Part shown: positions 3,684 to 31,926 of the stretch, piece by piece | Layout: each line of letters starts with the position of its first letter | Numbering within the stretch: the stretch's first letter is position 1 | Assembly (NCBI RefSeq): GCF_000012805.1 | Contig: NC_007484.1 | Span: forward strand, 1,320,001-1,352,000 | Source of the DNA: Nitrosococcus oceani ATCC 19707 | GTDB lineage: Bacteria > Pseudomonadota > Gammaproteobacteria > Nitrosococcales > Nitrosococcaceae | DNA length: 32,000 nucleotides | Direction: 5' to 3' | Position numbers and translations under genes: made by a program | The notes under the pieces: model-generated | Seen by the model: only the letters and a program-made list of their open reading frames with translations | Told to the model about the DNA's origin: nothing | Databases searched by the model: none

Positions 3684-3686
3684 ACA

Positions 3687-6901: not shown

Positions 6902-6966
6902 GTACTCAAACCCAAATTTTTGCCGATTCACCCCTTAAGGAGCCGCGGTTCTCCAAGGGTAGTATT

Positions 6967-9096: not shown

Positions 9097-9123
9097 ATAA
9101 TTATCCCTTTGAAGGAGTCTCCC

Positions 9124-11623: not shown

Positions 11624-11660
11624 AAATCCTTAATTTTATTGTGTTCGATCATTTTCTATT

Positions 11661-12518: not shown

Positions 12519-12552
12519 CCAGTACGTACCTCCTTTCTACACAGGAGAAAAC

Positions 12553-13407
12553 ATGAATGCTCCGGCCAGGATGGTGGCTGCCGGTAAACTTTTATTGTTG
12601 GGAGTACTCGCTTTATTGGCGCTTGCCCCCTCCGAGGCAGGGGTATTTCGCTGGATAGACTCAGCAGGCCACACCCACTATAGCGATCGCCCCCAGCCGG
12701 GCGCCCAGGAATTAAAGCTTAATAAACTTGCGGCGCCCTATTACTATGTTCAGCGGGTATATGATGGAGATACCCTCCTGCTCAAGGGGGATATCCGGGT
12801 CAGGTTATTAGGGATCGATACACCAGAGATTGAGGGCCGTTACCGGCTGGAGCAAGCAGGGGGCAGCTCGGCCCGGGATTGGTTGCGTCAACGTATTGAG
12901 GGTCAGAAGGTACGGCTTGAATTCGACCAAGAGCGGCATGATCATTATCAACGCTTGTTAGCCCACGTCTTTACTGTAGGGGGGGAACACCTTAACCTTC
13001 TCTTGGTAGAGGAAGGTTTGGCTGTAGTCAGTATTTTTCCTCCTAATTTCAAGTATGGTACTCAATTGGCACGGGCCCAGGATCGCGCCGAAGCGGACCG
13101 ACGGGGGCTTTGGAGCATGCCAGATTATGTGCCCCAGCCGATTCTAGCGATCCCCCGGGAGGGATACCAGCGAGGTTGGCGGCGTTATCAAGGAACCCCG
13201 GTGGCGATCCGTTCAAGCCGCAAGTATGCACGCTTGGTTTTTAGTAAGCAGGTGGAGGTGCGTATTCCCCAAGCGCAATTAGATCTTTTCGGGAAGCTTG
13301 AGCGCTACCTGGAAAAACAACTGGAGGTTCGAGGATGGGTTTCCCGCCGCAAAGAAAATTATTCTATCCTGGTGCGTCATCCAAGCGGACTCAAGCTGCT
13401 TTTTTAA
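12553..13407 (+). CDS. Secreted thermonuclease (SNase) family protein with an N-terminal DUF4124-like motif and a C-terminal extension
   Basis: SD AGGAGA lies upstream. Signal peptide ..LLALAPSEA|GV. FRWIDSAGHTHYSDRP resembles DUF4124. The SNase core is VYDGDTLLL..RVRLLGIDTPE.. and ..LLVEEGLA. About 110 aa of extra C-terminal sequence is of unknown fold. Confidence 0.8.
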   Translation: MNAPARMVAAGKLLLLGVLALLALAPSEAGVFRWIDSAGHTHYSDRPQPGAQELKLNKLAAPYYYVQRVYDGDTLLLKGDIRVRLLGIDTPEIEGRYRLEQAGGSSARDWLRQRIEGQKVRLEFDQERHDHYQRLLAHVFTVGGEHLNLLLVEEGLAVVSIFPPNFKYGTQLARAQDRAEADRRGLWSMPDYVPQPILAIPREGYQRGWRRYQGTPVAIRSSRKYARLVFSKQVEVRIPQAQLDLFGKLERYLEKQLEVRGWVSRRKENYSILVRHPSGLKLLF

Positions 13408-17826: not shown

Positions 17827-18345
17827 ATGAATAAACCGAGATTAGTGTTGTTTTATTTACTATTGGTAGCTATTCCCGCCGTACCAACGGCTATGGCTGC
17901 CGAGATTGGCCAACAGGCGCCTAACTGCTTATTGAAGCCCTTTGAGAAAGAAGATCAGGTGTTTCTTCAGCAATGGCAAGGAAAGGTGGTTTATGTGGAT
18001 TTTTGGGCTTCTTGGTGCCCGCCTTGCCTTAAATCTTTTCCCTTTTTAAATGATCTGCATCAGCGTTTTAGCGATCAAGGGCTACATATTGTGGGCATCA
18101 ATGTGGACGAGAAGTTAAGTGACGCCCAAGACTTTTTAGCGAGAGTGCCCGCTCACTTTGATGTTGTGGTTGATCCAGATCAGCAGTGTGCCCGGTCATT
18201 TGATATTCAAGCAATGCCTTCTTCTTTCTTGATTGACCAAAAGGGCGTGATTCGCCATACCCACTTAGGATTTCGCTCGGGGGATACGCAAGAGCTAGAG
18301 GCGTGGACGCAAAAACTTTTACAAGAAAAAACGGCTAATCCTTAA
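17827..18345 (+). CDS. Periplasmic TlpA/ResA-like thiol:disulfide oxidoreductase (thioredoxin fold)
   Basis: Signal or anchor sequence MNKPRLVLFYLLLVAIPAVPTAMA. Redoxin motif VVYVDFWASWCPPCLKSFPFL (CxxC). Typical redoxin-type (AhpC/TSA-like) thioredoxin-fold layout. Confidence 0.88.
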   Translation: MNKPRLVLFYLLLVAIPAVPTAMAAEIGQQAPNCLLKPFEKEDQVFLQQWQGKVVYVDFWASWCPPCLKSFPFLNDLHQRFSDQGLHIVGINVDEKLSDAQDFLARVPAHFDVVVDPDQQCARSFDIQAMPSSFLIDQKGVIRHTHLGFRSGDTQELEAWTQKLLQEKTANP

Positions 18346-18468
18346 TTTTACGCGTTGTTTACCGTTTAGTTTCCCCTCCCTTTTTTAGCATATGATTGCT
18401 TAATCAATACGCTTTGCGAAGCGCTACAACGCGCTTCGGCGTGTGTTAGATTTAAGGAGGATAGAGAT

Positions 18469-18726
18469 ATGATAAAAGATCGCCAACCTATAATAAGAAG
18501 ACGAAGAAAAACAATAAACACCTTGTTATTGCTACTATTCTTTGTGCTGCTAAACCTAGCAGGTTGCGCGCCGGTAGCGCCATGGGAACGGGGTAACCTG
18601 GCTAAACCCCAGATGGTGCCGGACCCCTATCCCATGCAGAGTGGCTTGCGTTCCCATAGTTACCGGGGCCGAGAAGCAGCTATCGGCGGCGATTCTGCGG
18701 AAGGGGGAGGATGTGGCTGCTATTAA
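18469..18726 (+). CDS. DUF4266 family lipoprotein
   Basis: SD AAGGAGG lies 8 nt upstream. Lipobox LNLAG|C. The conserved PWERGNLAKPQM segment and the C-terminal GGGCGCY tail are as I recall for DUF4266. The 3' end overlaps the following OMP gene. Confidence 0.85.
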   Translation: MIKDRQPIIRRRRKTINTLLLLLFFVLLNLAGCAPVAPWERGNLAKPQMVPDPYPMQSGLRSHSYRGREAAIGGDSAEGGGCGCY

Positions 18727-21262: not shown

Positions 21263-21339
21263 TCGAGTATAGGGTATTTCTCTAGCCTAGGGTTTGGGTT
21301 TTCCGGTGGATAAGCTTTTTTTAGGGTTAAGAGAGTAGC

Positions 21340-22308
21340 ATGAAGCTTTACCGGGAAGCCTTCAAGGCGATGGGTACGCCCTGTGAAATTCAGCTCTATG
21401 CCAAGACTAAGGTTCAAGCTCAACGGGCCGCGGGACTTATTATCGCCGATGTGCGCCGGTTGGAAGCTCGCTATTCCCGCTACCGCACTGATAGTTTTCT
21501 CTCCGATATCAACCGGGTGGCCATGGCGGGTGGGCGTATTTCGGTAGACAAAGAAACAGAAGGATTGCTCAATTATGCAGCTACCTGTTATGGGCAAAGT
21601 AAAGGATTATTTGATATTACTTCCGGTATTTTACGGCGCGCTTGGGATTTTAAATCAGGCGAGCTGCCGAGCAGGGTGCAAGTACAGGAACTGCTGGACA
21701 AAATTGGCTGGGAAAAACTGCGCTGGGCGCCGCCGGTATTAGAATTTCCCATAGCTGGAATGGAGATTGACTTTGGAGGTATCGTCAAGGAATATGCCGC
21801 CGACCGGGCGGCTTCGCTGAGCTTACAGGCAGGAGTTCGGCGAGGCCTAGTAAACTTAGGCGGTGATATCAAAGTGATTGGTCCTCGCCCGGACGGTGAG
21901 CCTTGGCGGATTGGTATCCGCCATCCTGGACATAAAGAAGCCGCGATGGGAATGCTGCTGCTACATAAAGGCGCGATTGCTAGTAGTGGTGACTATGAGC
22001 GCTGCATTGTATTAGATGGCGTTCGTTACGGCCATGTCCTCAATCCTCAGACGGGTTGGCCGGTACGGCACTTGGCATCGGTGACCGTAATCAGTGATTT
22101 ATGTGTGGTAGCAGGAAGCGCTTCTACTATTGCCATGCTAAAAGAGGCTAATGGTTCAGCCTGGTTGCAGAATTTGGGATTACCTCATTTCTGGGTGAAC
22201 ATGGAAGGTGAAACCGGTGGTTCCCTAGAGGAAGGCTCCATTGAAGCTGTTGCTATGGTTCAAAACAGCGAGCGCCAGGCGGCAATCACGGTACTCAACG
22301 AATATTAA
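21340..22308 (+). CDS. apbE: ApbE-family FAD:protein FMN transferase (no signal peptide)
   Basis: 322 aa. Begins MKLYREAFKAMGTPCEIQLY (the ApbE xMGT motif sits at the very N-terminus). Later motifs GGIVKEYAADRA, NLGGDI, ASSGDYER. An in-frame TAA at 21328-21330 precludes any upstream extension. Confidence 0.88.
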   Translation: MKLYREAFKAMGTPCEIQLYAKTKVQAQRAAGLIIADVRRLEARYSRYRTDSFLSDINRVAMAGGRISVDKETEGLLNYAATCYGQSKGLFDITSGILRRAWDFKSGELPSRVQVQELLDKIGWEKLRWAPPVLEFPIAGMEIDFGGIVKEYAADRAASLSLQAGVRRGLVNLGGDIKVIGPRPDGEPWRIGIRHPGHKEAAMGMLLLHKGAIASSGDYERCIVLDGVRYGHVLNPQTGWPVRHLASVTVISDLCVVAGSASTIAMLKEANGSAWLQNLGLPHFWVNMEGETGGSLEEGSIEAVAMVQNSERQAAITVLNEY

Positions 22309-22310
22309 CA

Positions 22311-22325
22311 AAGGCGCCACGCCTT
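22311..22325 (+). terminator. Weak hairpin after apbE (possible partial terminator)
   Basis: AAGGCG-cca-CGCCTT lies 3 nt after the stop. The T tract is interrupted (GCTGTGATTTTC). The 3-nt loop is tight. Confidence 0.25.
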
Positions 22326-22402
22326 GCTGTGATTTTCATGAAAACCGAATGCCGCTGCTTGTCCACTCAAATCTATCCTGTACATGCAAGGATAAAGAAA
22401 AT

Positions 22403-23956
22403 ATGAATGACCTCTCCCTAAATTTCCCGGGACGAGCGGGACTCTACTTTATCGTCTTTTTGACTGGCGCCGCAGTCATGATCATAGAAATTTTGGGAAC
22501 TCGGATGATTGCCCCTTTCTATGGGGCGAGCCTTTACGTTTGGTCATCCCTGATCTCGGTCACTATGATAGCGCTGGCCTTGGGTTATTTTATCGGGGGC
22601 CGCTGGGCTGATCGGGCCGAACGGACCGGCCTGTCATTGATCATTGCACTCGCAGCCTTACTCACTCTTCTTATTCCCTGGTTAACTCGTCCAGTGTTGC
22701 TGGCGACCGATCCGTTGGGCCTGCGGGCAGGGGCTTTGGTGAGTGCGCTGGTGCTGTTTTCGCCAAGCTTGACCTTTCTGGGAATGGTGGGGCCTTTCGC
22801 TGTTAAGTTATCCACTGCAAATCTGGCGGGGGTTGGCGCCAGCGCCGGTTCGATTTATGGGATAAGCACCCTTGGCAGTGTCGTGGGAACGTTACTCCTG
22901 GGATTCTATTTATTTCCTATTGTAGGTTCCCGCGAGATTTTTATTGTGCTTGGCCTTGTCCTGTTCCTATTGGCCATAGCCGTAGCCTTTTATGAGAGAA
23001 AACGCCTGAGGTTTACCTCGGCCCTACTGCCCATTGACTTCTTGGCAGCGATAGGAATTGGGCTATTACCACAAATTGCCGGTGCAAATCGCACGGACTC
23101 CAATAAGGAGTCTTTTCAAGTCCAATTCGAGCGGGAAAGCTTATATGGTTGGGTACGGGTTATTGATCAACCGGCGCGGGATCTCCGCCTGCTCACCGCT
23201 GATGCTTCTACCATTGGAGCGGCCAGCATTACCCATGGTCAAAACCGGCTTGCCTACCAAAATATCGTACCGCTCATTCCGGCTTTAGCACCTCCTATGA
23301 AGCGCGCTTTGCTGATTGGCCAGGGTGCCGGCCATATGGCTATGGCTTTGGAAGATCGCTATGGGATTGTCATGGATACGCTGGAGATAGACCCGGCCGT
23401 TGCGGAGGCGGCAATCCGTTATTTTGGCTTTAGTCCCACTGGTAAGGCCATAATTGGAGATGCCCGTTATGAAATTCGGCGTTTAAAAGGTCCTTATGAT
23501 TTAATTATCCATGATTGTTTTACCGGGGGTGCGGAGCCTGTCCATTTACTGACTATTGAAACTTTGACACGGCTACGCTCCCTGCTTTCCGAGCAGGGCA
23601 TACTCGCCCTTAATTTCGTATCTTTCTCGGAGAACGGGAAAAATACTGCATTGGCCTCTATCGCCAAGACCCTGGCGCACGCTTTTCCCCATCAAATGGT
23701 TTTTGCTTCCGAGCCCGGCAAGGATTTTAACGATTTCATTTTCCTTGCCGCTAATCGCCCTATTGATTTGGATGTCAATACACTCACGCTTGAGAAAATT
23801 TCTTGGTTAAAACAACGCCTTATGATAGTGGATAAAACCCAAGGAATCCTGTTAACGGATAATTTTAATCCACTTGAGCATTTGCAGGTACGTAAAGCAA
23901 AACACTATAGAAATATTTTAGTCAATTGGTTAGGCACGGATATTTTAGTGCGGTGA
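22403..23956 (+). CDS. Membrane-fused spermidine-synthase-like protein (polytopic N-domain plus class I SAM-fold domain)
   Basis: I prefer the ATG at 22403 (MNDLSLNFPGRAGLYFIVFLTGAAVMIIEILGTRMIAPFYGAS..), since the ORF-track extension to 22241 overlaps apbE. About 7-8 hydrophobic helices. The C-terminal domain has LLIGQGAGHMA, LEIDPAV and DLIIHDCF. The stop overlaps the wzm start (GTGA). Confidence 0.8.
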   Translation: MNDLSLNFPGRAGLYFIVFLTGAAVMIIEILGTRMIAPFYGASLYVWSSLISVTMIALALGYFIGGRWADRAERTGLSLIIALAALLTLLIPWLTRPVLLATDPLGLRAGALVSALVLFSPSLTFLGMVGPFAVKLSTANLAGVGASAGSIYGISTLGSVVGTLLLGFYLFPIVGSREIFIVLGLVLFLLAIAVAFYERKRLRFTSALLPIDFLAAIGIGLLPQIAGANRTDSNKESFQVQFERESLYGWVRVIDQPARDLRLLTADASTIGAASITHGQNRLAYQNIVPLIPALAPPMKRALLIGQGAGHMAMALEDRYGIVMDTLEIDPAVAEAAIRYFGFSPTGKAIIGDARYEIRRLKGPYDLIIHDCFTGGAEPVHLLTIETLTRLRSLLSEQGILALNFVSFSENGKNTALASIAKTLAHAFPHQMVFASEPGKDFNDFIFLAANRPIDLDVNTLTLEKISWLKQRLMIVDKTQGILLTDNFNPLEHLQVRKAKHYRNILVNWLGTDILVR

Positions 23957-24780
23957 AGTCATCGTCTGGATTCTCCATTTCTCCCATCGCGGCACTCAAG
24001 GAATTCATCAAAACCCGTGAATTGATTGCCCAGCTTGTTTGGAGCGAAGTGGTAGGGCGTTACCGGGGTTCCTTTGCGGGATTCTTGTGGTCTTTTCTTA
24101 ATCCTTTATTCTCCCTGGCAATGTATACTTTTGTCTTTGGGGTGGTTTTTAAGGCACGCTGGGGATTGTCGGCAGAAAATACTTTTGATTTTTCCATGGT
24201 GTTATTTACGGGTTTAATTGTTCATGGGTTAGTGTCTGAAACTATCAATCGAGCGCCCTATTTAATTCTTAGTAATCCCAGTTATGTTAAGCAAGTTGTG
24301 TTTCCCCTGGAGGTATTGCCGGTCGTCGCTTTGGGGTCGAGTTTATTTCATGCCGCGATTAGTTTTTTATTGTTAATTGTTATTTGGAGCATCGCCCATG
24401 GGAGCATAGCATTAGCCGTTGCTTTTATTCCCTTGCTAATATTGCCCTTGAGTTTAATTACTGTTGGAGTGAGTTGGTTTATGGCAGCGGCTACTGTGTA
24501 TTTTCGGGATCTGGGTCAACTGGTGACTTTTATCAGCAGTGGGCTGCTCTTTTTCTCGCCAATTTTTTACCCTGTAAGCTCAGTTCCAGAATCTTTTCGG
24601 ATCTTTTTAGAACTTAATCCGCTTACTTATATCATTGAACAGGTACGTGCCACGCTTATTAGTGGAGAAATTCCAGAGCTAAAGGGTTATGTAGTCTATT
24701 TTTTAGTTTCTGCTATCGTTGCCTGGGCGGGTTATGCCTGGTTCCAGAAAACACGCGCCGGTTTTGCCGATGTAATATAA
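23953..24780 (+). CDS. wzm: ABC-2 type polysaccharide export permease (Wzm/TagG-like)
   Basis: GTG at 23953 overlaps the upstream TGA. N-terminal signature RELIAQLVWSEVVGRYRGSFAGFLWSFLNPL, followed by six hydrophobic helices. The start could instead be the TTG at 23926. Confidence 0.85.
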   Translation: MKSSSGFSISPIAALKEFIKTRELIAQLVWSEVVGRYRGSFAGFLWSFLNPLFSLAMYTFVFGVVFKARWGLSAENTFDFSMVLFTGLIVHGLVSETINRAPYLILSNPSYVKQVVFPLEVLPVVALGSSLFHAAISFLLLIVIWSIAHGSIALAVAFIPLLILPLSLITVGVSWFMAAATVYFRDLGQLVTFISSGLLFFSPIFYPVSSVPESFRIFLELNPLTYIIEQVRATLISGEIPELKGYVVYFLVSAIVAWAGYAWFQKTRAGFADVI

Positions 24781-26030
24781 TGTTAACTTCCATGGGAGAA
24801 ACCGATCCGGAAATTTTGATTAATGTGGATAATGTTAGCAAGTGCTATCATTTATACCACCGCCCTCAGGATCGACTGTGGCAGTCTTTTTTTCGAGGGC
24901 GTAAAAAATTTCACCGTGAATTTTGGGCATTACTCAATATTTCCTTGCAGGTCCGGCGGCATGAGGCTGTAGCTATCATCGGGCGCAATGGCGCGGGAAA
25001 AAGCACCTTGCTACAGATCATTGCCGGCACTTTAGCGCCTACCTCAGGAAAAATCGCTGTTCAAGGCAGAGTTGCGGCCTTGCTCCAATTGGGAAGCGGT
25101 TTTAACCCTGAATTCACGGGGCGGGAAAATGTGTTTCTAAACGGCGCTATCCTTGGGTTTAGCCGCGCTGAAATTAGCTGCCGCTTTGAAGCAATAACAG
25201 CCTTTGCGGAGATCGGTAATTTTATTGATCAACCGGTTAAAACCTATTCTTCCGGGATGATCATGCGGCTTGCTTTCGCTGTTTCTACTTGTCTTGAACC
25301 GGAAGTGCTGATCATCGATGAGGCTTTAGCGGTAGGGGACGCAGCATTCCAATTTAAATGCAGGGATCGGCTTCAGGGTCTGATTACTCAAGGAACTACA
25401 TTATTACTGGTTTCCCATGATATGAGCGCTGTTAAATCGTTTTGTCATCGTGCAGTCTATATTGAAGATGGCCAAAAAAAGGCGGAGGGTGAACCGGAAC
25501 ACATCTCTGAGCGTTATTTTATGGATGTGCGTGCCCGGCAGATGAGTCGCGTACAACAAGAAAAAAAAGGCAGGGATACCATCGTCTGTGAAAAGTCCCA
25601 TGGTTATGGCACTAGTGAAGGAGAAATTGAGTCCGCTGTTTTTGTAGCAACAAGAGGAAGTGCCGCTCTTTTTAATTATGGTGATACTATTGAATTAAAG
25701 GTTACCTGCCAGTTTGCGTCTCACATAGAGTTTCCATGCCTATCGGTAGTACTCCAGGCAACTAATCTAGTGGGTATAGGTGGGCGCTGGTTCCGTATTA
25801 ACCCGCTTTCTTCGGAATTCGATGCTGCTGCTATTACTTTAAAAATAAAGTTTCCCGCAAAATTTAATGATGGAAAATATTTTATTACCCTAAGATTGGA
25901 AGATCGTAAAGATCAGAAACAATATTTTATTTTACATAAAATTCCAGGCGCATTAACATTTGATATTTTGCCGCGTACTAATAACGATTTATTAGGGTTT
26001 AATGATATAAAACTTACCTGTGAGCAGTAA
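24780..26030 (+). CDS. wzt: Polysaccharide export ABC ATPase with a C-terminal substrate-binding domain (Wzt/TagH-like)
   Basis: The ATG overlaps the wzm stop by 1 nt. Walker A GRNGAGKSTL, signature YSSGMIMRLAFA, Walker B VLIIDEAL. About 150 extra C-terminal residues (from about nt 25572) are beta-rich, as in the Wzt_C jelly-roll domain. Confidence 0.9.
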   Translation: MLTSMGETDPEILINVDNVSKCYHLYHRPQDRLWQSFFRGRKKFHREFWALLNISLQVRRHEAVAIIGRNGAGKSTLLQIIAGTLAPTSGKIAVQGRVAALLQLGSGFNPEFTGRENVFLNGAILGFSRAEISCRFEAITAFAEIGNFIDQPVKTYSSGMIMRLAFAVSTCLEPEVLIIDEALAVGDAAFQFKCRDRLQGLITQGTTLLLVSHDMSAVKSFCHRAVYIEDGQKKAEGEPEHISERYFMDVRARQMSRVQQEKKGRDTIVCEKSHGYGTSEGEIESAVFVATRGSAALFNYGDTIELKVTCQFASHIEFPCLSVVLQATNLVGIGGRWFRINPLSSEFDAAAITLKIKFPAKFNDGKYFITLRLEDRKDQKQYFILHKIPGALTFDILPRTNNDLLGFNDIKLTCEQ

Positions 26031-26033
26031 GAA

Positions 26034-26663
26034 ATGATTATTTCTCACAAATATCAATTTATTTTTATAAAGAACGGAAAAACAGCAGGAACAAGTATTG
26101 AAGTATTCCTTTCCAAGTTTTGCGGTTCTTTTGATATCGTTACCCCCATTTATCCCGCGGTGGAATCCCATTTTCCTCGTAATTACGCGGGTTTTTATAA
26201 CCGCATGACGAGCGCGGAGATTCGGGAGAAAATAGGTAAGAAAACCTGGAAAAATTATTTTAAATTTTGTGTAGAGCGTAACCCTTGGGATAAAGCTATC
26301 TCCTATTATTATATGGCTAAATGCAGAACTGGTGGGAATCTCTCTCTTGACAAATTTCTCGATGGCTGTGAATTTCCCATCAATTTTCCCCGCTATACAG
26401 AACCAGGAAATAGTTCAAAAATTATTGTAGATAAAATTATTGACTTTAATAACCTTATTGAAGGCTTAGGAGAAGTTTTCGGAAGGTTAGGATTACCTTT
26501 TGATGGTTCGCTTGGGGTTTATGCTAAATCAGAATATCGGACTGATCGACGGCCTTATCAAGAAGTTTTGACGGCTTCCCAGGCACGTAAAATTCAAGAG
26601 ATCTTTGCGGTGGAGATTGATTTGCATGGTTATCATTTTCAGAAAGTAAAATTAATCGCATGA
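26034..26663 (+). CDS. Family-2 type sulfotransferase (paralog 1)
   Basis: 5'-PSB-like loop FIKNGKTAGTSIEVFL and 3'-PB-like motif VERNPWDKAISYYY. 209 aa. Separated from wzt by a 3-nt gap. Confidence 0.8.
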   Translation: MIISHKYQFIFIKNGKTAGTSIEVFLSKFCGSFDIVTPIYPAVESHFPRNYAGFYNRMTSAEIREKIGKKTWKNYFKFCVERNPWDKAISYYYMAKCRTGGNLSLDKFLDGCEFPINFPRYTEPGNSSKIIVDKIIDFNNLIEGLGEVFGRLGLPFDGSLGVYAKSEYRTDRRPYQEVLTASQARKIQEIFAVEIDLHGYHFQKVKLIA

Positions 26664-27280
26664 TAGGAATACGTCACCAATTCATTTTTGTGCATATTCC
26701 AAAGACCGCTGGCAATGCCATGCAGAATATTCTAAGCACCTACTCGGAAGATACTATCGTTGTCAGCGGCAATAAGGATGGTGTTCATCGATTTGGATTA
26801 TATAGTCTCTACGGCACCACTAAGCACTCGACTTTGACTGATTATTTTTTTGCACTAGGGCCAGAATCATTTTGGCCAAAACGAAAATTTACCTGTGTCC
26901 GTAATCCTTGGGATCGTGCTATCTCTTTTTATTTTTCACCACATAATAAAAATTATTCCTGGAATAGAAATAAATTTATCCGCATGTTGGATAAAATTTA
27001 TCCAATGACTACTTTTTTGCGCCTACCTGCCCATGTGGCGAGTACAAAACCTGATCAAAACATTGATCTTATTATCCGCTACGAAGATTTACACAAAGGT
27101 TTTTCTAAGTTATGCGATATCCTAGGGATTTCAAGGAGAAGTCTTCCTGTTCTCAATAAGGGGAATCGGAAGTCCTATTTTGAATATTACGATTCCGATC
27201 TTATCCAAATAGTAGCGGAGCGTTTCCGGGAAGATATTGAGAATTTTGGCTATGAATTCGATTCCCCTAAGCGCTATTAA
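26660..27280 (+). CDS. Family-2 type sulfotransferase (paralog 2)
   Basis: FVHIPKTAGNAMQNIL and VRNPWDRAISFYF. ATGA overlap with paralog 1. Confidence 0.8.
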   Translation: MIGIRHQFIFVHIPKTAGNAMQNILSTYSEDTIVVSGNKDGVHRFGLYSLYGTTKHSTLTDYFFALGPESFWPKRKFTCVRNPWDRAISFYFSPHNKNYSWNRNKFIRMLDKIYPMTTFLRLPAHVASTKPDQNIDLIIRYEDLHKGFSKLCDILGISRRSLPVLNKGNRKSYFEYYDSDLIQIVAERFREDIENFGYEFDSPKRY

Positions 27281-27282
27281 GA

Positions 27283-27990
27283 ATGAAGATCGTCATCGTG
27301 CATATTCCTAAGGCGGCGGGTACTTCACTCAAGGAAGCTATTTCCGCTAAAGTAGGTATCGATAATATTCATTTTGATTATGATCGCCCCCTCGCCAGGG
27401 GTGATTTATCAAGGAATGCTCGTTGCTTGGCCTCAAGTATTACCGTTAAGCCGAGAGAAGAATCAATTATTTTCGGTCATTTCCTAGTGGGAAAATATGC
27501 TAGATTTAACGGCTGTTATTTTAGGCGCCGTAAAAAAATATTTTACGTGACTTTTCTCAGAGAACCTTTACAAAGAGCAATATCGCATTTTTTTTTCTGG
27601 AAAAGAACGGCTGTTCAAGGACATCGGGTTTGGGAGCGTTTTACTCAAGAGAATTGGAGCTTAGAAAGATTCCTGCTATCTAGGGAACATACTAATTTCC
27701 AGGCCAAATTCCTTTGGCGATTTCCGTTGAATCAGTTTGACTTTATCGGTTTAACAGAATATTTCCATGATAGCGTAGAAATGCTGGGACGCGTTTCTCC
27801 ACTGCTAAGCGGCTTGCCAATAAAAACAGAAAACGGTAATCCAAAAAATTCTATTGGAGCGAGTTATAGCATTGATTCCTGTCTGGCATCCGAGTTTATG
27901 CGCCGCAATGAATTGGATTACGATTTATATAATCAAGGAGTTAAACGTTTTCTTATACAAAAACACAAACTTTTAAAGGCAAAGGGATGA
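27283..27990 (+). CDS. Family-2 type sulfotransferase (paralog 3, more divergent)
   Basis: IVHIPKAAGTSLKEAI and LREPLQRAISHFFF. 2-nt gap upstream and ATGA overlap downstream. Confidence 0.75.
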   Translation: MKIVIVHIPKAAGTSLKEAISAKVGIDNIHFDYDRPLARGDLSRNARCLASSITVKPREESIIFGHFLVGKYARFNGCYFRRRKKIFYVTFLREPLQRAISHFFFWKRTAVQGHRVWERFTQENWSLERFLLSREHTNFQAKFLWRFPLNQFDFIGLTEYFHDSVEMLGRVSPLLSGLPIKTENGNPKNSIGASYSIDSCLASEFMRRNELDYDLYNQGVKRFLIQKHKLLKAKG

Positions 27991-30900
27991 CTATGACGGA
28001 CAGCTCATCGGTCGTATTTTTGCTAGGAGTGCCCCGTTCAGGTACAACTTTACTTTCTTGGTTGCTTAATCAGCACCGGAGTATTTACTGCCCGCCGGAG
28101 CCGTGGCTGCTGCTGGGACTAGAATCGCTTGGACAGGTTCCTGCTGATCACGTTGCCGATCCGCCTCTTTTGTCTAGCGCGGTTGCTGAGTTTTTAGGAG
28201 CTAGACGATTACAGAGTCTCAAGCGGGCAGCCTTATCTATTTATCAGCACGCCTTGGAGGAAGCGGGAAAATCTGTTTTTATTGATAAAACCCCTCGTAA
28301 CTATCATGCCCTTGATTTTGTGCAGGAGTTTCTGCCGGAAGGAAAAATTATTTTTCTCGTACGCAATCCCCTTGATGTGGCGGCTTCTTTTAAAACTTCT
28401 TGGTCGGTGGAACTTCCAAAAATTATCTCTAATCAGGAAGATACTCCTTTTATTTTTGACTATATTCTAGGTTTTAATAGACTGCTGGATTTTGAAGAAA
28501 ATTATCCCGTGCTTAGAGTTCGTTATGAGGACTTGGTTGTTGATCCTGATGAACAAATGGTGCGTATCTTTAAGTATCTAAAACTCCCACCGCAAGCAAT
28601 TAATAAGGATTTGGACATTCAAAAAACCTCCTATGCCAGGAGTTCTCTCGGCGATAAGAGAATTCTTGCGACGCCCTCTATTCATACGCGATCTATTGAT
28701 GCTTATAAGGGTGTTTTCAAAAAAGGGGAAATTCAAACTCTTTTGAATTCCTTGGGAGAAAAATCTTTTTTTAAATTAGGTTATGCCCAACAATATGCTG
28801 ATGCCTGTGCAGAATTCGAAATAATGCCTTGTCACGAGATCTCTTCACGGCTGCTAAAAACAGCGGAAGGATACGTGCAACGACGCCAGAGGCGTTGTTC
28901 TGACCTCCAGTCACGAGGTATTTTCGAGCAAAAAATAGAATATTTAAGTCAACAAATTGAATGCTTGAAGCAACAAAATGAAATTGCCCAGAAGCGCAAT
29001 CAGGATATTAGTAATGAATTAAAATCCGCTCAGAGGCAAAATAGCACGCTTAATAAGCAGTTAATTCTATCGAGAACAGAAAAGGAAGAATTTAAGAAGC
29101 AATTCCATTCGTTGCAAAATATGGGTTTGAAAGCGCGTTTACATGGGGATCTTGGATATATTAAAAAACGCTTAAAACAGAAAATCAAAGATGGCCTTTG
29201 GCACGTAGTACAAGGGCCGCCCGCACCGCCATTACCAAGAATAACGATAGTTACGCCGGTGCTTAATGGCGCTCAATTTATTGAAGCGACGCTGCGCTCG
29301 GTGCTGGTACAAGAATATCCCGCACTGGAATTTATCATCGTTGATGGTGGTTCCACTGATGATACCTTGTCTATTATAGATAGCGTTCAAAATAGTTCTG
29401 ATTTTAAGGATAGAATTAGTTGTGTCATATCAGAGCCTGATGGCGGCATGTATGATGCTATCGCTAAGGGCTTCTCGCGGGCAACGGGTGAAATACTGGG
29501 ATACCTAAATGCTGATGATTTACTTGAAGGCGGGGCCTTAGCTGCTGTTGGCAGTTATTTCTCCCGCCATCCGAAAGTAGCCGTAATCTACCATGAGGAC
29601 ACTGTTTTGGTGAACGGGTGGAAATATCCCAACGTTCGGCAGCCAAAGGGGATAAATACGGTTGATCTGCTTAATAAGCATATTTTATTTCAGGACGGTG
29701 TTTTTTTTAGGCGGGAAGCTTACCAAACCATTGGTGGTTTACGGCGTGATTTAAAATTAGCGGGAGATTATGATCTCTGGTTGCGTTTATCGGCTCGTTT
29801 TAAATTTATCCGTAGGTCAGGGCATGTTAGTTGTTTCCGTATTCGCCGGGGGCAATTTAGCGAAAATATGGAAGCTTATAATGAAGAAATGGAACGTGCG
29901 CGCCATGATTTTTTATCCCAAGCTTCCCGCTTGCAAATACTTCGCTGGGAAATTCAAAAGAAATATCTTTTTTTCAGTAAATCTATAGAAAAAATTTCGA
30001 GGCGCCACCGCTTATTTTTCCCCCTCGATTTTAGCAATTTGCCGCCACCGCCTGTTAGTTTGTCTGGAACGGAGTATGGACAGGCATTAAGCCCCATTGA
30101 TGGCAAGTTGGCAGAGCGGTTCTTGTTTAGTACTCCAGATACTCGCTTTGGCGATAAGATGATCAATTATATCTACCTGGATACCCGTCATCTCATTGCG
30201 ATTACTTATCCGCCTATCCAGCCTGCTGAACTTGACAGATTGTATAAGCGCCATTATTCTGCGCCGCCCTCATCGATCAATAACCCAGAGAGTCCTTCGC
30301 CCTATCGTCAGTTCGAGGGTAAACGCCCCTGGGAGAAATTGCTTCTGAGGCTACCCGTGGAGCGGTGGCTTTCGTATTTTTTTTCCAAAGATCTCTGGCT
30401 AGATAATACCCTGAATGAGTTGAGTAATACGCTTCAATCTTCACAAATTAATATTCACAGCCCACTTCGAGTACTTGATACTGGTTGTTTTGAGGGCCAT
30501 TTACTCGATGGCATTGCCGCCCGGAAATCCTGGCGAGGTTATGGCCTGGAACCCAATATCCAAGCGGTGGAAATTGCTCGTGGTAAGGGGCATTGTGTTT
30601 GGCAAGGACGTGCTGAAGATGCTGTTGAGATTATTCCATATTCCTATCAGTTCGATGTCATTTTCATGGGGCAAAGTATTGAGCATACAGATGATCCGGT
30701 GCGGGTCCTGCGCCGTCTTCGTCTGCTACTTGCCCCTGGTGGCGTTCTGGTCGTGAGTACGCCTAATTTGGATTCCCGGCAAATTACCTGGTTTGGCCCA
30801 ACTTGGGCTCATTGGCATGCACCCTATCATCGCTATATTTTTTCGAGGAAGGGTTTATTCGCCCTAGCCAGACAAACAGGTTTGCATCCTGTTTGTTTCA

Positions 30901-31106
30901 AAACCTTCTCCCATTGTTACTGGACTGCCATGTCACTAATGCAGAATTTTATCGGGCTTGGAGGTAGCGTATCCCATACAGTCGATTTTGATCATCCCCT
31001 GCGTTTACGGGCGCAAAGAATTAATTTTTGGCAGCAGTTTTTTTGGAATCGTATAGGCAAAGGGGATTATTGCTTCTTTGTGATGAGGGATGAGGAAAGT
31101 GGCTAA
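27987..31106 (+). CDS. Multidomain glycan biosynthesis protein: sulfotransferase, coiled coil, GT2 glycosyltransferase, class I SAM methyltransferase
   Basis: 1039 aa. Residues about 7-270: LLGVPRSGTTLLS (PAPS 5'-PSB) and IIFLVRNPLDVAASF (3'-PB). Residues about 300-400: heptad-rich segment (EQKIEYLSQQIECLKQQNEIAQKRNQDISNELKSAQRQNSTLNKQL..). Residues about 417-640: GT2 (ITIVTPVLNGAQFIEATLRSVL..IIVDGGSTDDT..LNADD). Residues about 825-1035: methyltransferase (VLDTGCFEGHLL..LLAPGGVLVVSTPN). Confidence 0.85.
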   Translation: MTMTDSSSVVFLLGVPRSGTTLLSWLLNQHRSIYCPPEPWLLLGLESLGQVPADHVADPPLLSSAVAEFLGARRLQSLKRAALSIYQHALEEAGKSVFIDKTPRNYHALDFVQEFLPEGKIIFLVRNPLDVAASFKTSWSVELPKIISNQEDTPFIFDYILGFNRLLDFEENYPVLRVRYEDLVVDPDEQMVRIFKYLKLPPQAINKDLDIQKTSYARSSLGDKRILATPSIHTRSIDAYKGVFKKGEIQTLLNSLGEKSFFKLGYAQQYADACAEFEIMPCHEISSRLLKTAEGYVQRRQRRCSDLQSRGIFEQKIEYLSQQIECLKQQNEIAQKRNQDISNELKSAQRQNSTLNKQLILSRTEKEEFKKQFHSLQNMGLKARLHGDLGYIKKRLKQKIKDGLWHVVQGPPAPPLPRITIVTPVLNGAQFIEATLRSVLVQEYPALEFIIVDGGSTDDTLSIIDSVQNSSDFKDRISCVISEPDGGMYDAIAKGFSRATGEILGYLNADDLLEGGALAAVGSYFSRHPKVAVIYHEDTVLVNGWKYPNVRQPKGINTVDLLNKHILFQDGVFFRREAYQTIGGLRRDLKLAGDYDLWLRLSARFKFIRRSGHVSCFRIRRGQFSENMEAYNEEMERARHDFLSQASRLQILRWEIQKKYLFFSKSIEKISRRHRLFFPLDFSNLPPPPVSLSGTEYGQALSPIDGKLAERFLFSTPDTRFGDKMINYIYLDTRHLIAITYPPIQPAELDRLYKRHYSAPPSSINNPESPSPYRQFEGKRPWEKLLLRLPVERWLSYFFSKDLWLDNTLNELSNTLQSSQINIHSPLRVLDTGCFEGHLLDGIAARKSWRGYGLEPNIQAVEIARGKGHCVWQGRAEDAVEIIPYSYQFDVIFMGQSIEHTDDPVRVLRRLRLLLAPGGVLVVSTPNLDSRQITWFGPTWAHWHAPYHRYIFSRKGLFALARQTGLHPVCFKTFSHCYWTAMSLMQNFIGLGGSVSHTVDFDHPLRLRAQRINFWQQFFWNRIGKGDYCFFVMRDEESG

Positions 31107-31926
31107 TTTGAAACTTCCAACTATTAGTATTGTAACGCCGTCCCTCAATCAGGGAGAGTATGTGGAGTGGACGGTGCGATCGGTGTTTGAGCAACGTTAT
31201 CCAAACCTGGAGTATATCTTTATGGATGGTGGCTCTACTGATCAGACGCTAGATCGTATTGCCTCCTACCGTAATCGTTTTTTACATTTTGAGTCGGGGC
31301 CTGATGGAGGGCAGAGTGCAGCTATTGCTAAGGGATTTAGCATTGCCACTGGGGAGATTATGGCCTATTTAAATAGCGATGATGTGCTACTGCCCGGTAC
31401 GCTTAATTTTGTGGCCGATTATTTCCATCGTCATCCTGAAGTAGATTTTCTTTATGGCCATCGTTGCATTGTTAACGAAATAAATCAAGTTATAGGACAC
31501 TGGATTCTGCCTCGGCATAGCAGTTTTTTAATGCGGCGTTGGGATCTTATCCCGCAGGAATCTTGTTTCTGGCGTCGTCGCCTGTTTGAACAAAAAGGGA
31601 ATATCGATGCCAGTTTCCAATTTGCTATGGATTATGATTTGTTCGTACGCTATATGGACGTTGGTAATTTCAAGCGGGTAAACCGATTTCTTTCGGCCTT
31701 TCGAGTGCATAAAGATGCTAAAACCACAACCCAGCTGACGACTACCGGTTGGGCGGAAATAGAACGTGTACAACGGTCCAATCAGATGCGGTTTCCACCT
31801 TTGCTAGGTAAGCTTTTCCCTCTTTCGGTACAATTACGTTCCCTCCTTTTTATTCGAAGAGGAGAGTGCTTTCCGGGGCTTCCTCCAGGGTCGAATTTTA
31901 ACTTAAACATCCTATGGGGAGATTAA
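31090..31926 (+). CDS. GT2 family glycosyltransferase (paralog of the GT2 domain in the 1039-aa protein)
   Basis: ISIVTPSLNQGEYVEWTVRSVFEQRYPNLEYIFMDGGSTDQTLDRI and AIAKGFSIATGEIMAYLNSDD align colinearly with residues about 419-515 of the upstream protein. The start overlaps the upstream gene; 31099 (GTG) and 31108 (TTG) are alternatives. Confidence 0.85.
   Translation: MRKVANLKLPTISIVTPSLNQGEYVEWTVRSVFEQRYPNLEYIFMDGGSTDQTLDRIASYRNRFLHFESGPDGGQSAAIAKGFSIATGEIMAYLNSDDVLLPGTLNFVADYFHRHPEVDFLYGHRCIVNEINQVIGHWILPRHSSFLMRRWDLIPQESCFWRRRLFEQKGNIDASFQFAMDYDLFVRYMDVGNFKRVNRFLSAFRVHKDAKTTTQLTTTGWAEIERVQRSNQMRFPPLLGKLFPLSVQLRSLLFIRRGECFPGLPPGSNFNLNILWGD

What the first reader, a model, noticed from the sequence alone, without database searches (positions are those of the whole stretch)
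27987..31106. 1039-aa sulfotransferase/coiled-coil/GT2/methyltransferase protein: possible chain-terminator and molecular-ruler enzyme
The domain order seen is a PAPS-type sulfotransferase (nt about 28005-28800), about 70-100 residues of heptad-rich sequence (nt about 28884-29186), GT2 (about 29235-29906), a linker, and a class I methyltransferase (about 30459-31091). In ABC-transporter-dependent O-antigen systems, chain length is set by a terminator enzyme. Its coiled coil acts as a ruler between terminating and polymerising activities (E. coli O9a WbdD kinase/methyltransferase; Raoultella/Klebsiella WbbB); this is established. This protein has the same logic, but with sulfation and/or methylation as the candidate cap. 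I am not aware that this has been described. A coiled coil of about 70-100 residues would span roughly 10-15 nm at about 0.15 nm per residue.
Basis: partly seen in the sequence, partly recalled or inferred. Interest (0 to 1): 0.75.

Follow-up and report, generated by a model that had tools for sequence, protein, structure and literature searches.

The report
Sulfotransferase-on-a-stalk glycan polymerase–terminator candidate
This Nitrosococcus oceani gene encodes one 1039-residue protein with a sulfotransferase joined by a coiled-coil stalk to a sugar-polymerising and a methylating module, next to an exporter that reads chain ends, so it most likely builds a surface polysaccharide and stops it with a sulfate cap, a capping chemistry I found described in none of the papers I could search.

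Summary
ORF 27987-31106 (+) encodes 1039 aa in this order:
- a PAPS-type sulfotransferase (aa 8-268);
- a 67-residue unbroken heptad coiled coil (aa 312-378);
- GT2 (aa 417-623);
- a cationic amphipathic helix (aa 656-673);
- a class I methyltransferase (aa about 700-1034).

The source is Nitrosococcus oceani AFC27. The gene lies in one translationally coupled operon with wzm, a wzt that carries a cap-reading C-terminal domain, three small sulfotransferases and a second GT2.

New evidence for the terminator/ruler reading:
- All 18 distinct genomic loci with this fusion have a Wzt with a 163-224 aa C-terminal extension within 2 kb.
- Among 14 closer homologs, every stalk indel is a whole number of heptads (7, 14, 35, 42 or 63 residues).
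- Asn is enriched at heptad a positions, which suggests a parallel zipper.
- The module at the N-terminal, presumably membrane-distal, end is swapped in relatives (sulfotransferase, FkbM methyltransferase, GT9 or none), while the GT2-methyltransferase core and its GT2 partner stay constant.

The format matches Klebsiella O12 WbbB and O7 ORF6. The protein is not an ortholog of WbdD, WbbB or NoeE.

Cap identity, oligomer state and ruler function are not tested. A 2019 census of terminators could not be read and may already list such proteins.

Verdict: new variant of a known kind. Interest 0.55.

The parts
23926..24780 (+). wzm: ABC-2 permease of the glycan exporter
   Evidence: PF01061 ABC2_membrane, E 4.1e-27. 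Weak match to the galactan Wzm/RfbD model. Its end abuts the wzt start.
24780..26030 (+). wzt: ABC ATPase with a C-terminal carbohydrate-binding (cap-reading) domain, aa 273-409
   Evidence: PF00005 plus PF14524 Wzt_C, 63.5 bits against a cut-off of 30.4. Matches full-length Aquifex aeolicus Wzt (8dku) over aa 14-396, E 6e-72.
26034..26663 (+). small stand-alone sulfotransferase 1 (209 aa)
   Evidence: PF03567 Sulfotransfer_2, 22.6 bits. The translation shows K-N-G-K-T-A-G-T-S and R-N-P-W-D-K-A-I-S, which resemble PAPS-binding motifs.
26660..27280 (+). small stand-alone sulfotransferase 2 (206 aa)
   Evidence: PF03567, E 4.5e-12.
27283..27990 (+). small stand-alone sulfotransferase 3 (235 aa)
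   Evidence: PF03567, 22.5 bits. Orthologs occur only in the Nitrosococcaceae and Methylococcales loci.
27987..31106 (+). the 1039-aa ST / coiled-coil / GT2 / MT protein (whole ORF)
28008..28790 (+). NoeE-like PAPS sulfotransferase domain (aa 8-268); candidate distal terminator
   Evidence: PF13469, E 4.8e-28. NoeE model NF052394 scores 185.7 bits, below its cut-off of 500. P16, R17, S18, G19 and T21 are nearly invariant; R126 and S134 are invariant; D130 is nearly invariant in 49 homologs. Nearest solved structures are the CurM sulfotransferase and tyrosylprotein sulfotransferases.
28920..29120 (+). coiled-coil stalk: 67 residues in one heptad register (aa 312-378). a positions: I317 I324 N331 N338 L345 N352 L359 K366 F373. 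d positions: F313 L320 L327 A334 I341 A348 L355 S362 F369 L376
   Evidence: Heptad score z = 6.3, 0 of 20000 shuffles; the strongest period of column hydrophobicity is 3.5 residues. AF2 models a single helix 312-374. All indels among close homologs are multiples of 7. Asn is enriched at a positions.
29127..29213 (+). conserved 'neck' helix (aa 381-409) leading into GT2
   Evidence: AF2 helix 381-409 with pLDDT rising to 76-88. The motif GL+ARLR.DL.Y.KKRLK..LWR..GP is conserved. It has no heptad signal.
29235..29855 (+). GT2 (GT-A fold) glycosyltransferase domain (aa 417-623); candidate polymerase module
   Evidence: PF00535, E 1.3e-23. D453, D485 and D511 are invariant; D510, D594 and D596 are nearly invariant. 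The best sequence and fold match is the WrtF fucosyltransferase 9OMH-9OMN.
29952..30005 (+). cationic amphipathic helix IQKKYLFFSKSIEKISRR (aa 656-673); candidate membrane-interface anchor
   Evidence: Highest hydrophobic moment in the protein (0.57) with net charge +5; no transmembrane segment. It lies within AF2 helix 648-671. WrtF is described as membrane-associated through a C-terminal amphipathic helix (PMC12595478).
30084..31088 (+). class I SAM methyltransferase with an N-terminal beta subdomain (aa about 700-1034)
   Evidence: PF13489, E 6.9e-20. The motif L-D-x-G-C-F-E-G is family-wide (G833, C834, F835), and E855, E899 and H900 are nearly invariant. Fold matches to KijD1 and TcaB9 span about 359 columns.
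31090..31926 (+). GT2b: stand-alone GT2 paralog, the constant partner of the fusion protein
   Evidence: PF00535, E 1.3e-21. An ortholog of at least 300 bits is present in all 18 ST-type loci and in most GT2-MT loci.

Best explanation
The protein is a combined polymerase and terminator for a polysaccharide made by the ABC-transporter-dependent pathway. The product is probably an O-polysaccharide or a related surface glycan of Nitrosococcus oceani.

Proposed mechanism, all of it inferred:
1. The GT2 domain, together with the constant stand-alone GT2 encoded next to it, elongates a lipid-linked chain at the inner face of the cytoplasmic membrane. The protein is held there by the cationic amphipathic helix that follows GT2.
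2. The C-terminal methyltransferase sits beside this polymerase and adds methyl groups. Its exact target is unknown.
3. The N-terminal NoeE-like sulfotransferase is held about 10 nm away on a homo-oligomeric coiled coil, probably parallel.
4. Once the growing non-reducing end can reach that site, it is sulfated from PAPS. This blocks further elongation and creates the terminal mark that the Wzt C-terminal domain needs to start export.
5. Stalk length would then help set chain length.

Shown here: domain composition, intact catalytic motifs, a real and conserved coiled coil, whole-heptad length variation, strict linkage to a Wzt with the extra domain, and exchange of the N-terminal module.
For: - Domains and motifs are intact.
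- The operon has wzm, wzt with Wzt_C, three further sulfotransferases and GT2b.
- Wzt matches the Aquifex Wzt, whose C-terminal domain binds the O-antigen cap; PMC9445017.
- In 18 of 18 distinct ST-CC-GT2-MT loci a Wzt with a 163-224 aa extension lies within 2 kb, mostly directly upstream. Wzt_C passes the Pfam threshold in 6 of 10 further loci tested and is subthreshold in 3.
- The coiled coil is real: z = 6.3, 3.5-residue period over 49 homologs, one 63-residue AF2 helix.
- Among 14 closer homologs all stalk indels are multiples of 7, and six distinct linker lengths fall in one class mod 7.
- Asn makes up 44 of 421 a positions and is rare at d positions.
- Module exchange at the N-terminal end on a constant GT2-MT23 core: FkbM methyltransferase (L030, L041) and GT9 (L007, P0074). 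A stand-alone ST-plus-coiled-coil protein lies directly after a Wzt_C-bearing wzt.
- In Rhizobium sp. AAP43 no other gene in the 10-kb flanks has a sulfotransferase Pfam hit, and cysD and cysNC (PAPS synthesis) lie in the same cluster.
Against: - No chemistry of the N. oceani glycan is known, so a terminal sulfate is unproven.
- Three extra sulfotransferases in the same operon show that at least some sulfation is probably internal.
- The GT2-MT core also occurs with a Wzt_C-bearing Wzt in loci without any fused sulfotransferase (L006, L040). The methyl group could therefore be the cap that is read.
- One homolog (P0019) has lost 9 heptads of the stalk yet keeps all three catalytic domains.
- The oligomeric state and helix orientation could not be modelled. 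AF2 confidence in the stalk is only 58-73, and below 50 at aa 364-384.
- Comparing the Wzt C-terminal domains between loci with different N-terminal modules was uninformative: 7-23 % identity everywhere.
Confidence: 0.5

Rival explanations
1. The C-terminal methyltransferase is the true terminator. It would make a methyl cap, as in E. coli O8 or Aquifex aeolicus, and Wzt would read that cap. The sulfotransferase would only decorate the chain, and the coiled coil would serve for oligomerisation or scaffolding.
For: - The GT2-MT23 core is the constant unit and is found near a Wzt_C-bearing Wzt without any fused sulfotransferase (L006, L010, L014, L015, L017, L036, L040).
- Methyl caps are the best-documented kind (PMC9445017).
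- A fused glycosyltransferase-methyltransferase terminator without a ruler is known from Geobacillus WsaE (my own knowledge, not checked here).
Against: - In L030 and L041 a second, FkbM-type methyltransferase occupies the N-terminal position while the MT23 domain is retained. That is hard to explain if MT23 already caps the chain.
- Only 9 of 24 GT2-MT loci without a sulfotransferase have a Wzt with the extension nearby, against 18 of 18 for the ST-fused form.
- All characterised coiled-coil systems place the terminator at the distal end (PMC11231755).
Confidence: 0.17
2. Neither group is a cap. Sulfate and methyl are substituents of every repeat unit of a heavily sulfated polysaccharide, and the coiled coil merely assembles a multi-enzyme complex. 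Chain length would be set by transporter-polymerase competition or by another protein.
For: - There are four sulfotransferase domains in the N. oceani operon.
- Stalk length ranges from 90 to 318 residues between the domains, and the stalk can be nearly lost (P0019).
- Dedicated PAPS-synthesis genes in the Rhizobium cluster would suit bulk sulfation.
Against: - According to the literature read, a Wzt with a C-terminal binding domain marks cap-dependent export (PMC9445017; PMC11231755), and it is present in 18 of 18 loci.
- Whole-heptad indels indicate selection on the phase and continuity of the stalk, not a passive linker.
- The three small sulfotransferases are absent from the other 15 of the 18 ST-type loci, so they are accessory.
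Confidence: 0.15
3. The stalk forms an antiparallel dimer. The sulfotransferase of one chain would then sit beside the GT2-MT of the other, giving a compact three-enzyme reaction centre with no ruler function.
For: - A single long helix without an intramolecular partner is compatible with either orientation.
- Whole-heptad indels would also be required in an antiparallel coil.
Against: - Asn recurs at a positions (N331, N338, N352; N in 17 of 31 and 17 of 46 non-gap residues in two columns).
- From coiled-coil design work, buried Asn pairs need a-a' contacts, which only a parallel in-register arrangement offers (my own knowledge).
- WbdD is described in the literature read as carrying an extended ruler.
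Confidence: 0.08

Closest known systems
Klebsiella pneumoniae O7 ORF6 (methyltransferase-kinase / coiled coil / two GT2 modules; PMC11231755)
   Same: [quoted passage not shown] It is encoded next to wzm/wzt, and a further stand-alone GT completes the polymerase.
   Different: - The N-terminal module here is a PAPS sulfotransferase, not a methyltransferase-kinase.
- There is one fused GT2, not two.
- An extra class I methyltransferase follows the GT2.
- The carbohydrate-binding fold modelled before the coil in ORF6 was not looked for in the model here.
Klebsiella/Raoultella O12 WbbB (GT99 Kdo transferase / coiled coil / GT1 + GT25)
   Same: Terminator, ruler and polymerase are integrated in a single protein, and Wzt reads the terminal residue.
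   Different: - The terminator in WbbB adds a sugar (Kdo), not a sulfate.
- The GT families differ.
- No WbbB structure appears among the top sequence or fold hits.
E. coli O9a / K. pneumoniae O3 WbdD (methyltransferase + kinase, coiled-coil ruler, C-terminal membrane helix that recruits WbdA)
   Same: A cap-adding enzyme sits at the far end of a coiled coil whose length sets chain length, and a peripheral amphipathic helix anchors it to the membrane.
   Different: - WbdD has no GT module, and its polymerase is a separate protein.
- Its cap is methyl-phosphate.
- There is no kinase domain here.
- WbdD is absent from the PDB sequence hits of the methyltransferase region even at E <= 1.
NoeE of Sinorhizobium (Rhizobium) sp. 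NGR234, the Nod-factor sulfotransferase
   Same: It is the best curated match of the N-terminal 358 residues (NF052394, 185.7 bits, covering profile positions 5-369 of 387). NoeE sulfates C3 of 2-O-methylfucose, a sugar that is both methylated and sulfated (PMC5080398). Fucose synthesis genes accompany the proteobacterial versions of this cluster.
   Different: - The score is far below the equivalog cut-off of 500.
- NoeE is a stand-alone enzyme acting on a lipo-chitooligosaccharide, not on a polymer end.
- Fcl is present in only 4 of 18 loci.
WrtF of Rhizobium tropici (GT2 alpha-1,4-L-fucosyltransferase of an ABC-dependent O-polysaccharide; PDB 9OMH-9OMN)
   Same: It is the closest solved structure to the GT2 domain (E 4e-17 by sequence, Foldseek E 2e-17, TM 0.65-0.70 on the target). 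They share the motif ISEPD-G-YDAI-KG and an xADD motif. Both have an amphipathic helix after the GT-A fold.
   Different: The His142-Asn143 pair conserved in GT2 fucosyltransferases is Gln569-Asp570 here, and Gly89 is Asn508. The donor sugar therefore cannot be assigned.
HNK-1 sulfotransferase acting on matriglycan made by LARGE1 (animal)
   Same: Sulfation of the non-reducing terminal sugar stops a two-GT polymerase. This rests on my own knowledge plus the title of Sheikh et al. 2020, cited in PMC12514197. It is a precedent for sulfate as a chain terminator.
   Different: It is a eukaryotic Golgi system with separate proteins, no coiled-coil ruler and no export checkpoint.

Membership tests
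Coiled-coil polymerase/terminator proteins of ABC-transporter-dependent glycan assembly (functional class of WbdD, WbbB, K. pneumoniae O4 ORF7 and O7 ORF6) | Encoded in a cluster with wzm and wzt | tested here: met
   wzm is at 23926-24780 and wzt at 24780-26030, in the same coupled operon. The arrangement is conserved in L003, L004 and L005.
Coiled-coil polymerase/terminator proteins of ABC-transporter-dependent glycan assembly (functional class of WbdD, WbbB, K. pneumoniae O4 ORF7 and O7 ORF6) | Wzt carries a C-terminal carbohydrate-binding domain that reads the cap | tested here: met
   Wzt_C PF14524 scores 63.5 bits against a cut-off of 30.4. In 18 of 18 loci Wzt has a 163-224 aa extension. 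Of 10 further loci, 6 pass the Pfam threshold, 3 are subthreshold and 1 gives no hit. Binding specificity was not tested.
Coiled-coil polymerase/terminator proteins of ABC-transporter-dependent glycan assembly (functional class of WbdD, WbbB, K. pneumoniae O4 ORF7 and O7 ORF6) | Extended coiled coil in the terminator protein | tested here: met
   67 residues lie in one register with z = 6.3. AF2 models a 63-residue helix. The heptad period is conserved in 49 homologs. Indels come in whole heptads. The oligomeric state was not tested.
Coiled-coil polymerase/terminator proteins of ABC-transporter-dependent glycan assembly (functional class of WbdD, WbbB, K. pneumoniae O4 ORF7 and O7 ORF6) | A chain-modifying (terminating) catalytic module at the end of the coil away from the polymerase and membrane | tested here: inconclusive
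   The architecture fits: the sulfotransferase is N-terminal, and GT2 plus the amphipathic helix are C-terminal. The N-terminal module is exchangeable. That it terminates chains is inferred, not shown.
Coiled-coil polymerase/terminator proteins of ABC-transporter-dependent glycan assembly (functional class of WbdD, WbbB, K. pneumoniae O4 ORF7 and O7 ORF6) | The glycan bears a non-reducing terminal cap, and chain length follows coil length | not testable with these tools
   This needs glycan chemistry and stalk-length mutants. The natural heptad-quantised variants supply material for such a test.
WbdD orthologs (E. coli O9a type) | N-terminal methyltransferase plus kinase domains, and no GT module | tested here: not met
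   There is no kinase family hit. A GT2 module is present. The methyltransferase is C-terminal. WbdD is absent from the PDB hits of the methyltransferase region at E <= 1.
WbbB orthologs (K. pneumoniae O12 type) | N-terminal GT99 beta-Kdo transferase with C-terminal GT1 and GT25 modules | tested here: not met
   Only sulfotransferase, GT2 and methyltransferase families are found. No WbbB chain appears among the listed sequence or fold hits.
NoeE (NCBIfam NF052394 equivalog) | Whole-protein score at or above the curated cut-off of 500 bits | tested here: not met
   The score is 185.7 bits over aa 4-358. It is a relative, not an equivalog.
PAPS-dependent sulfotransferase superfamily | 5'-phosphosulfate-binding loop (P-x-x-G-T-T type) and 3'-phosphate-binding R-x(3)-D-x(3)-S motif | tested here: met
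   The sequence has P16-R-S-G-T-T21 and R126-N-P-L-D130-V-A-A-S134. R126 and S134 are invariant; P16, R17, S18, G19, T21 and D130 are nearly invariant in 49 homologs. PF13469 and PF00685 both score above threshold. The motif definitions come from my own knowledge.
GT2 fucosyltransferases of the WrtF type | Conserved Asp66, His142-Asn143, Asp167 and Phe191 (per PMC12595478) | tested here: not met
   Asp66 corresponds to Asp485, which is conserved, but His142-Asn143 correspond to Gln569-Asp570. The other positions fall outside the reliable alignment.
Class I SAM-dependent methyltransferases | Rossmann-type SAM-binding motif I and an acidic residue after strand 2 | tested here: met
   PF13489 scores 71.8 bits against a cut-off of 27. 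The motif is L-D-T-G-C-F-E-G, with G833, C834 and F835 nearly invariant and E855 nearly invariant. The third Gly of the usual G-x-G-x-G is Phe throughout the family.

The most novel reading that the evidence does not exclude
Sulfate is a true additional class of non-reducing-end cap in ABC-transporter-dependent glycan assembly. A NoeE-like sulfotransferase, held on a parallel coiled coil, would both stop polymerisation and license export through the Wzt C-terminal domain. The whole-heptad length differences seen between species (linkers of 90 to 153 residues among close relatives, up to 318 in the wider family) would be natural settings of a molecular ruler that fixes the length of a sulfated surface glycan in marine nitrifiers, Rhizobiales and many Planctomycetota.
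Probability: 0.4. Interest if true: 0.7.

Novelty: new variant of a known kind. Interest (0 to 1): 0.55.

Why it matters
The caps named in the papers I could read are methyl, methyl-phosphate and Kdo (PMC9445017; PMC11231755).

- **New chemistry.** A sulfate cap would be a new chemistry for the checkpoint that couples chain completion to export. It would also show that the coiled-coil stalk is a general platform onto which different terminators are plugged: sulfotransferase, FkbM methyltransferase or GT9 on one constant GT2-methyltransferase core.
- **A natural test of the ruler.** The heptad-quantised natural variants offer a ready-made series for testing the ruler model without engineering.
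- **Ecology.** The product would be a sulfated, methylated and, in Nitrosococcus, fucose-containing surface polymer. The organism is a widespread marine ammonia oxidiser, and the system also occurs in many planctomycetes. This bears on phage and grazer recognition, and on the pool of sulfated glycans in the sea.
- **Annotation.** The current annotation of this protein as 'methionine biosynthesis protein MetW, putative' is misleading.

Tried and rejected
1. **Wzt domain as a clue to the cap.** I asked whether the Wzt C-terminal domain sequence tracks the type of N-terminal module, which would identify what it reads. The domains are only 7-23 % identical between all loci, whatever the type. The isolated domain has no PDB sequence hit. 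The comparison was uninformative.
2. **Fucose as the core sugar.** Fcl (497.5 bits), the NoeE likeness and WrtF as best structural hit suggested a sulfated fucan. However, Fcl and GT2c occur in only 4 of 18 loci, and the fucosyltransferase His-Asn pair is not conserved. Fucose is therefore an accessory feature of the proteobacterial clusters.
3. **Trimer signature.** I first labelled the Asn residues as d positions, which would suggest a trimer motif. Recounting the 3-4 spacing puts them at a positions, which suggests a dimeric zipper. The notes were corrected.
4. **Mod-7 test over the whole family.** Over all 35 distinct linker lengths, the excess of one residue class is not convincing by my own rough hand chi-square (p about 0.1) on the lengths listed. 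The signal is clear only among closer homologs.
5. **The 2019 census.** Mann, Kimber and Whitfield 2019 is not held in the library. Searches pairing sulfotransferase with Wzt, coiled coil, molecular ruler or chain-terminating found no description of such a terminator. The one N. oceani comparative paper does not discuss this gene.
6. **Oligomer modelling.** Only single chains can be predicted with the tool available.

Full report
**1. What is there**

The window holds a single ORF of 1039 codons at 27987-31106 on the + strand. It starts with an ATG that overlaps the stop of the preceding ORF by 4 nt. The next ORF starts 17 nt before its stop, so the genes are translationally coupled.

- Sulfotransfer_3, aa 10-201, E 4.8e-28;
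- Glycos_transf_2, aa 420-582, E 1.3e-23;
- Methyltransf_23, aa 824-968, E 6.9e-20.

The identical protein is encoded in two assemblies of Nitrosococcus oceani (GCA_000155655.1 and GCA_007990675.1). One source names it 'methionine biosynthesis protein MetW, putative [Nitrosococcus oceani AFC27]', which describes only the methyltransferase fold.

About 60 protein clusters share the complete four-part architecture. They include N. watsonii (87 % identity), Candidatus Nitrosoglobus terrae (64 %), Candidatus Nitrosacidococcus, Rhizobium sp. AAP43 (44 %) and a Tepidisphaeraceae planctomycete. The fusion is therefore real and old.

**2. The three catalytic modules look active**

In an alignment of 49 full-length homologs:
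- The sulfotransferase keeps P16-R-S-G-T-T21 and R126-x3-D130-x3-S134. By my own knowledge of the superfamily these are the two PAPS-binding motifs.
- The GT2 domain keeps D453, D485, the N-A-D-D511 motif and G593-D594-x-D596.
- The methyltransferase keeps an unusual but family-wide motif I (L-D-x-G-C-F-E-G), together with E855 and E899-H900.

The N-terminal 358 residues are most like the Nod-factor sulfotransferase NoeE (185.7 bits). This is far below that model's cut-off of 500, so the domain is a relative, not an equivalog.

The GT2 domain is closest, by both sequence and fold, to WrtF. WrtF is a GT2 fucosyltransferase from an ABC-transporter-dependent O-polysaccharide of Rhizobium tropici (PMC12595478). 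However, the His-Asn pair conserved in such fucosyltransferases is Gln569-Asp570 here. I do not assign a donor sugar.

**3. The coiled coil**

- One heptad register runs unbroken from aa 312 to 378. Its score is 6.3 standard deviations above shuffles of the same residues (0 of 20000 reach it), and it is higher than any other window of the protein.
- Across the 49 homologs the sequence is poorly conserved, but the hydrophobicity of alignment columns has its strongest period at exactly 3.5 residues. Core columns are 80-98 % hydrophobic.
- AlphaFold2 (mean pLDDT 88) models aa 312-374 as one 63-residue helix. Confidence there is modest (58-73), as expected for a coil modelled without its partners. 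A break follows at 375-380, then a conserved helix 381-409 that leads into GT2.
- At about 0.15 nm per residue the canonical coil spans roughly 10 nm.
- The a positions carry Asn unusually often: N331, N338 and N352 in this protein, and 44 of 421 a positions in the family against few at d positions. From coiled-coil design work, buried Asn at a positions favours parallel, in-register pairing. This is an inference, not a result.

**4. Length varies in whole heptads**

I anchored the linker on profile HMMs of the flanking domains. The sulfotransferase-to-GT2 linker then ranges from 90 to 318 residues in the family.

Among 14 closer homologs the flanks align cleanly. Every gap lies inside the heptad segment and is a multiple of seven: 7, 14, 35, 35+7 or 63 residues. 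This gives six distinct lengths (90, 111, 118, 139, 146, 153), all in one class mod 7. If the five differences were independent events, the chance would be about (1/7)^5.

Over the whole family the mod-7 excess is weaker (23 of 60 proteins; 10 of 35 distinct lengths). By itself it is not convincing.

The pattern shows that the stalk is a continuous coiled coil whose phase with both flanking domains is under selection while its length is free to change. A ruler would be expected to evolve this way. An oligomerisation stalk whose two ends must keep a fixed rotation would show the same pattern.

**5. Genomic context**

Immediately upstream are:
- wzm (23926-24780);
- a wzt (24780-26030) that carries the Wzt_C domain (63.5 bits) and matches the full-length Aquifex aeolicus Wzt over aa 14-396 (E 6e-72).

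In that transporter, and in the E. coli and Klebsiella prototypes, this domain binds the chemical cap at the non-reducing end and is needed for export of capped chains (PMC9445017).

Between wzt and the target lie three small sulfotransferase genes. After the target come a paralogous GT2 (31090-31926) and, beyond the window, GDP-L-fucose synthase, another GT2 and a GT4.

A scan of one genome per species gave 18 distinct loci with the ST-coil-GT2-MT fusion.
- They come from Nitrosococcaceae, Methylococcales, Rhizobiales and many Planctomycetota.
- All 18 have a Wzt-type ATPase with a 163-224 residue C-terminal extension within 2 kb, mostly directly upstream.
- All 18 have the GT2 paralog.
- Of ten further Wzt proteins scanned, six pass the Pfam Wzt_C threshold, three are just below it and one is not recognised.

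In Rhizobium sp. AAP43 no other gene in the 10-kb flanks has a sulfotransferase Pfam hit. The cluster also carries gmd, fcl, cysD and cysNC, that is, its own PAPS supply.

The three small sulfotransferases, fcl and the third GT2 are lineage-specific additions.

**6. The N-terminal module is exchangeable**

The same GT2-Methyltransf_23 core, with the same GT2 partner, occurs with four kinds of N-terminus:
- no N-terminal module (for example P0080, L040);
- a GT9 domain and a heptad segment in front (P0074/L007, P0081);
- an FkbM-type methyltransferase and a heptad segment in front (L030 Ancylobacter; L041);
- the sulfotransferase, as here.

There is also a stand-alone sulfotransferase-plus-coiled-coil protein directly after a Wzt_C-bearing wzt (P0096). 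That is the WbdD format.

[quoted passage not shown] It also states that the coiled-coil protein is the hallmark of the strategy (PMC11231755).

By that rule the sulfotransferase, not the C-terminal methyltransferase, is the candidate terminator here. The FkbM variants, which retain the core methyltransferase, argue the same way.

**7. Membrane end**

The protein has no transmembrane segment. Its strongest amphipathic helix is IQKKYLFFSKSIEKISRR (aa 656-673; moment 0.57; net charge +5), and it follows the GT2 domain directly. WrtF is described as membrane-associated through a C-terminal amphipathic helix. I infer that GT2 and the methyltransferase sit at the membrane and the sulfotransferase projects into the cytoplasm.

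**8. Most likely mechanism, and its rivals**

Best explanation (confidence about 0.5): this is a WbbB- or O7-ORF6-type polymerase-terminator in which sulfation of the terminal sugar stops elongation and creates the export mark, with the stalk contributing to chain-length control.

Rivals:
- The core methyltransferase makes a methyl cap and sulfate is decoration (about 0.17). This is supported by GT2-MT loci that have a Wzt_C-bearing Wzt but no sulfotransferase.
- Neither group is a cap (about 0.15). This is supported by the four sulfotransferases in N. oceani and by a homolog that has lost nine heptads.
- The coil is antiparallel and gives a compact enzyme centre without a ruler (about 0.08).

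The role of the methyltransferase is unresolved. Its fold aligns over about 359 columns with the nucleotide-sugar C-methyltransferases TcaB9 and KijD1 at low identity, so action on a donor sugar cannot be excluded.

**9. Comparison with what is known, and novelty**

The protein works like WbbB and K. pneumoniae O7 ORF6, but it is not an ortholog of WbdD, WbbB or NoeE (see the membership table).

- The caps named in the papers I could read are methyl, methyl-phosphate and Kdo.
- No paper in the searchable library links a sulfotransferase to a coiled-coil terminator or to Wzt in this sense.
- The N. oceani comparative genomics paper does not discuss the gene.
- The 2019 census by Mann, Kimber and Whitfield, which by my recollection predicts 'new chemistries', could not be read. 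It may already list such proteins.

I therefore rate this a new variant of a known kind, with interest 0.55. A specialist would see it as a plausible and testable extension rather than a surprise. The heptad-quantised natural series and the plug-in N-terminal modules add real value.

Noticed in passing
window 26034-27990: Three tandem, translationally coupled small ORFs (209, 206 and 235 aa) have Sulfotransfer_2-type PAPS motifs. Orthologs occur only in the Nitrosococcaceae and Methylococcales versions of the cluster. The N. oceani glycan is therefore probably sulfated at several positions besides any cap.
   Followed up: partly
window 24000-31000: G+C falls to 37-48 % across the glycan cluster, against 51-61 % in the first 13 kb and 50.3 % for the genome (PMC7285500). 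The composition looks island-like. Even so, the cluster and its upstream neighbours are syntenic in Candidatus Nitrosoglobus terrae.
   Followed up: partly
window 22241-23956: A fused MFS/spermidine-synthase-like membrane protein (NF037959, 203.8 bits) ends just inside the start of wzm. It is conserved at this position only in Nitrosococcus and Nitrosoglobus. Any link to the glycan pathway is unknown.
   Followed up: no
L002 14118-17111 (downstream of the window end): The cluster continues with GDP-L-fucose synthase (497.5 bits against a cut-off of 500), a third GT2 and a GT4, then stops at cytochrome and alternative-complex-III genes. Fcl and the third GT2 co-occur in only 4 of 18 loci. This suggests an add-on fucose branch or adaptor.
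   Followed up: partly
L030 9245-12226 and L041 9275-12097: Relatives in which an FkbM-type methyltransferase (PF05050) replaces the sulfotransferase in front of the heptad segment, while the GT2-Methyltransf_23 core is retained. Each protein therefore has two different methyltransferases.
   Followed up: partly
P0019 (metagenomic homolog, 980 aa): This homolog has lost 63 residues (nine heptads) of the stalk but keeps all three catalytic domains. It is a natural 'no-ruler' variant. Its contig is too short to show the neighbouring genes.
   Followed up: no
window 17827-22308: A block of a thioredoxin-like protein, DUF4266, DUF3570 (an 873-aa ORF, function not examined) and ApbE lies directly upstream of the glycan cluster. 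It is conserved in the same order in Ca. Nitrosoglobus terrae.
   Followed up: no
window 120-13407: Housekeeping or unrelated genes: DUF6384 (1295-2215) flanked by two ORFs with no Pfam hit, PIN-PhoH (3687-5108), guanylate kinase, SpoT/RelA (6967-9096), RecG (9434-11623), a UbiA prenyltransferase and a secreted SNase-like nuclease.
   Followed up: no
window 30459-30500 (aa 829-837): The methyltransferase motif I reads G-C-F-E-G instead of the usual G-x-G-x-G. The Phe is nearly invariant in the 49 homologs. The consequence for SAM binding is unknown.
   Followed up: no
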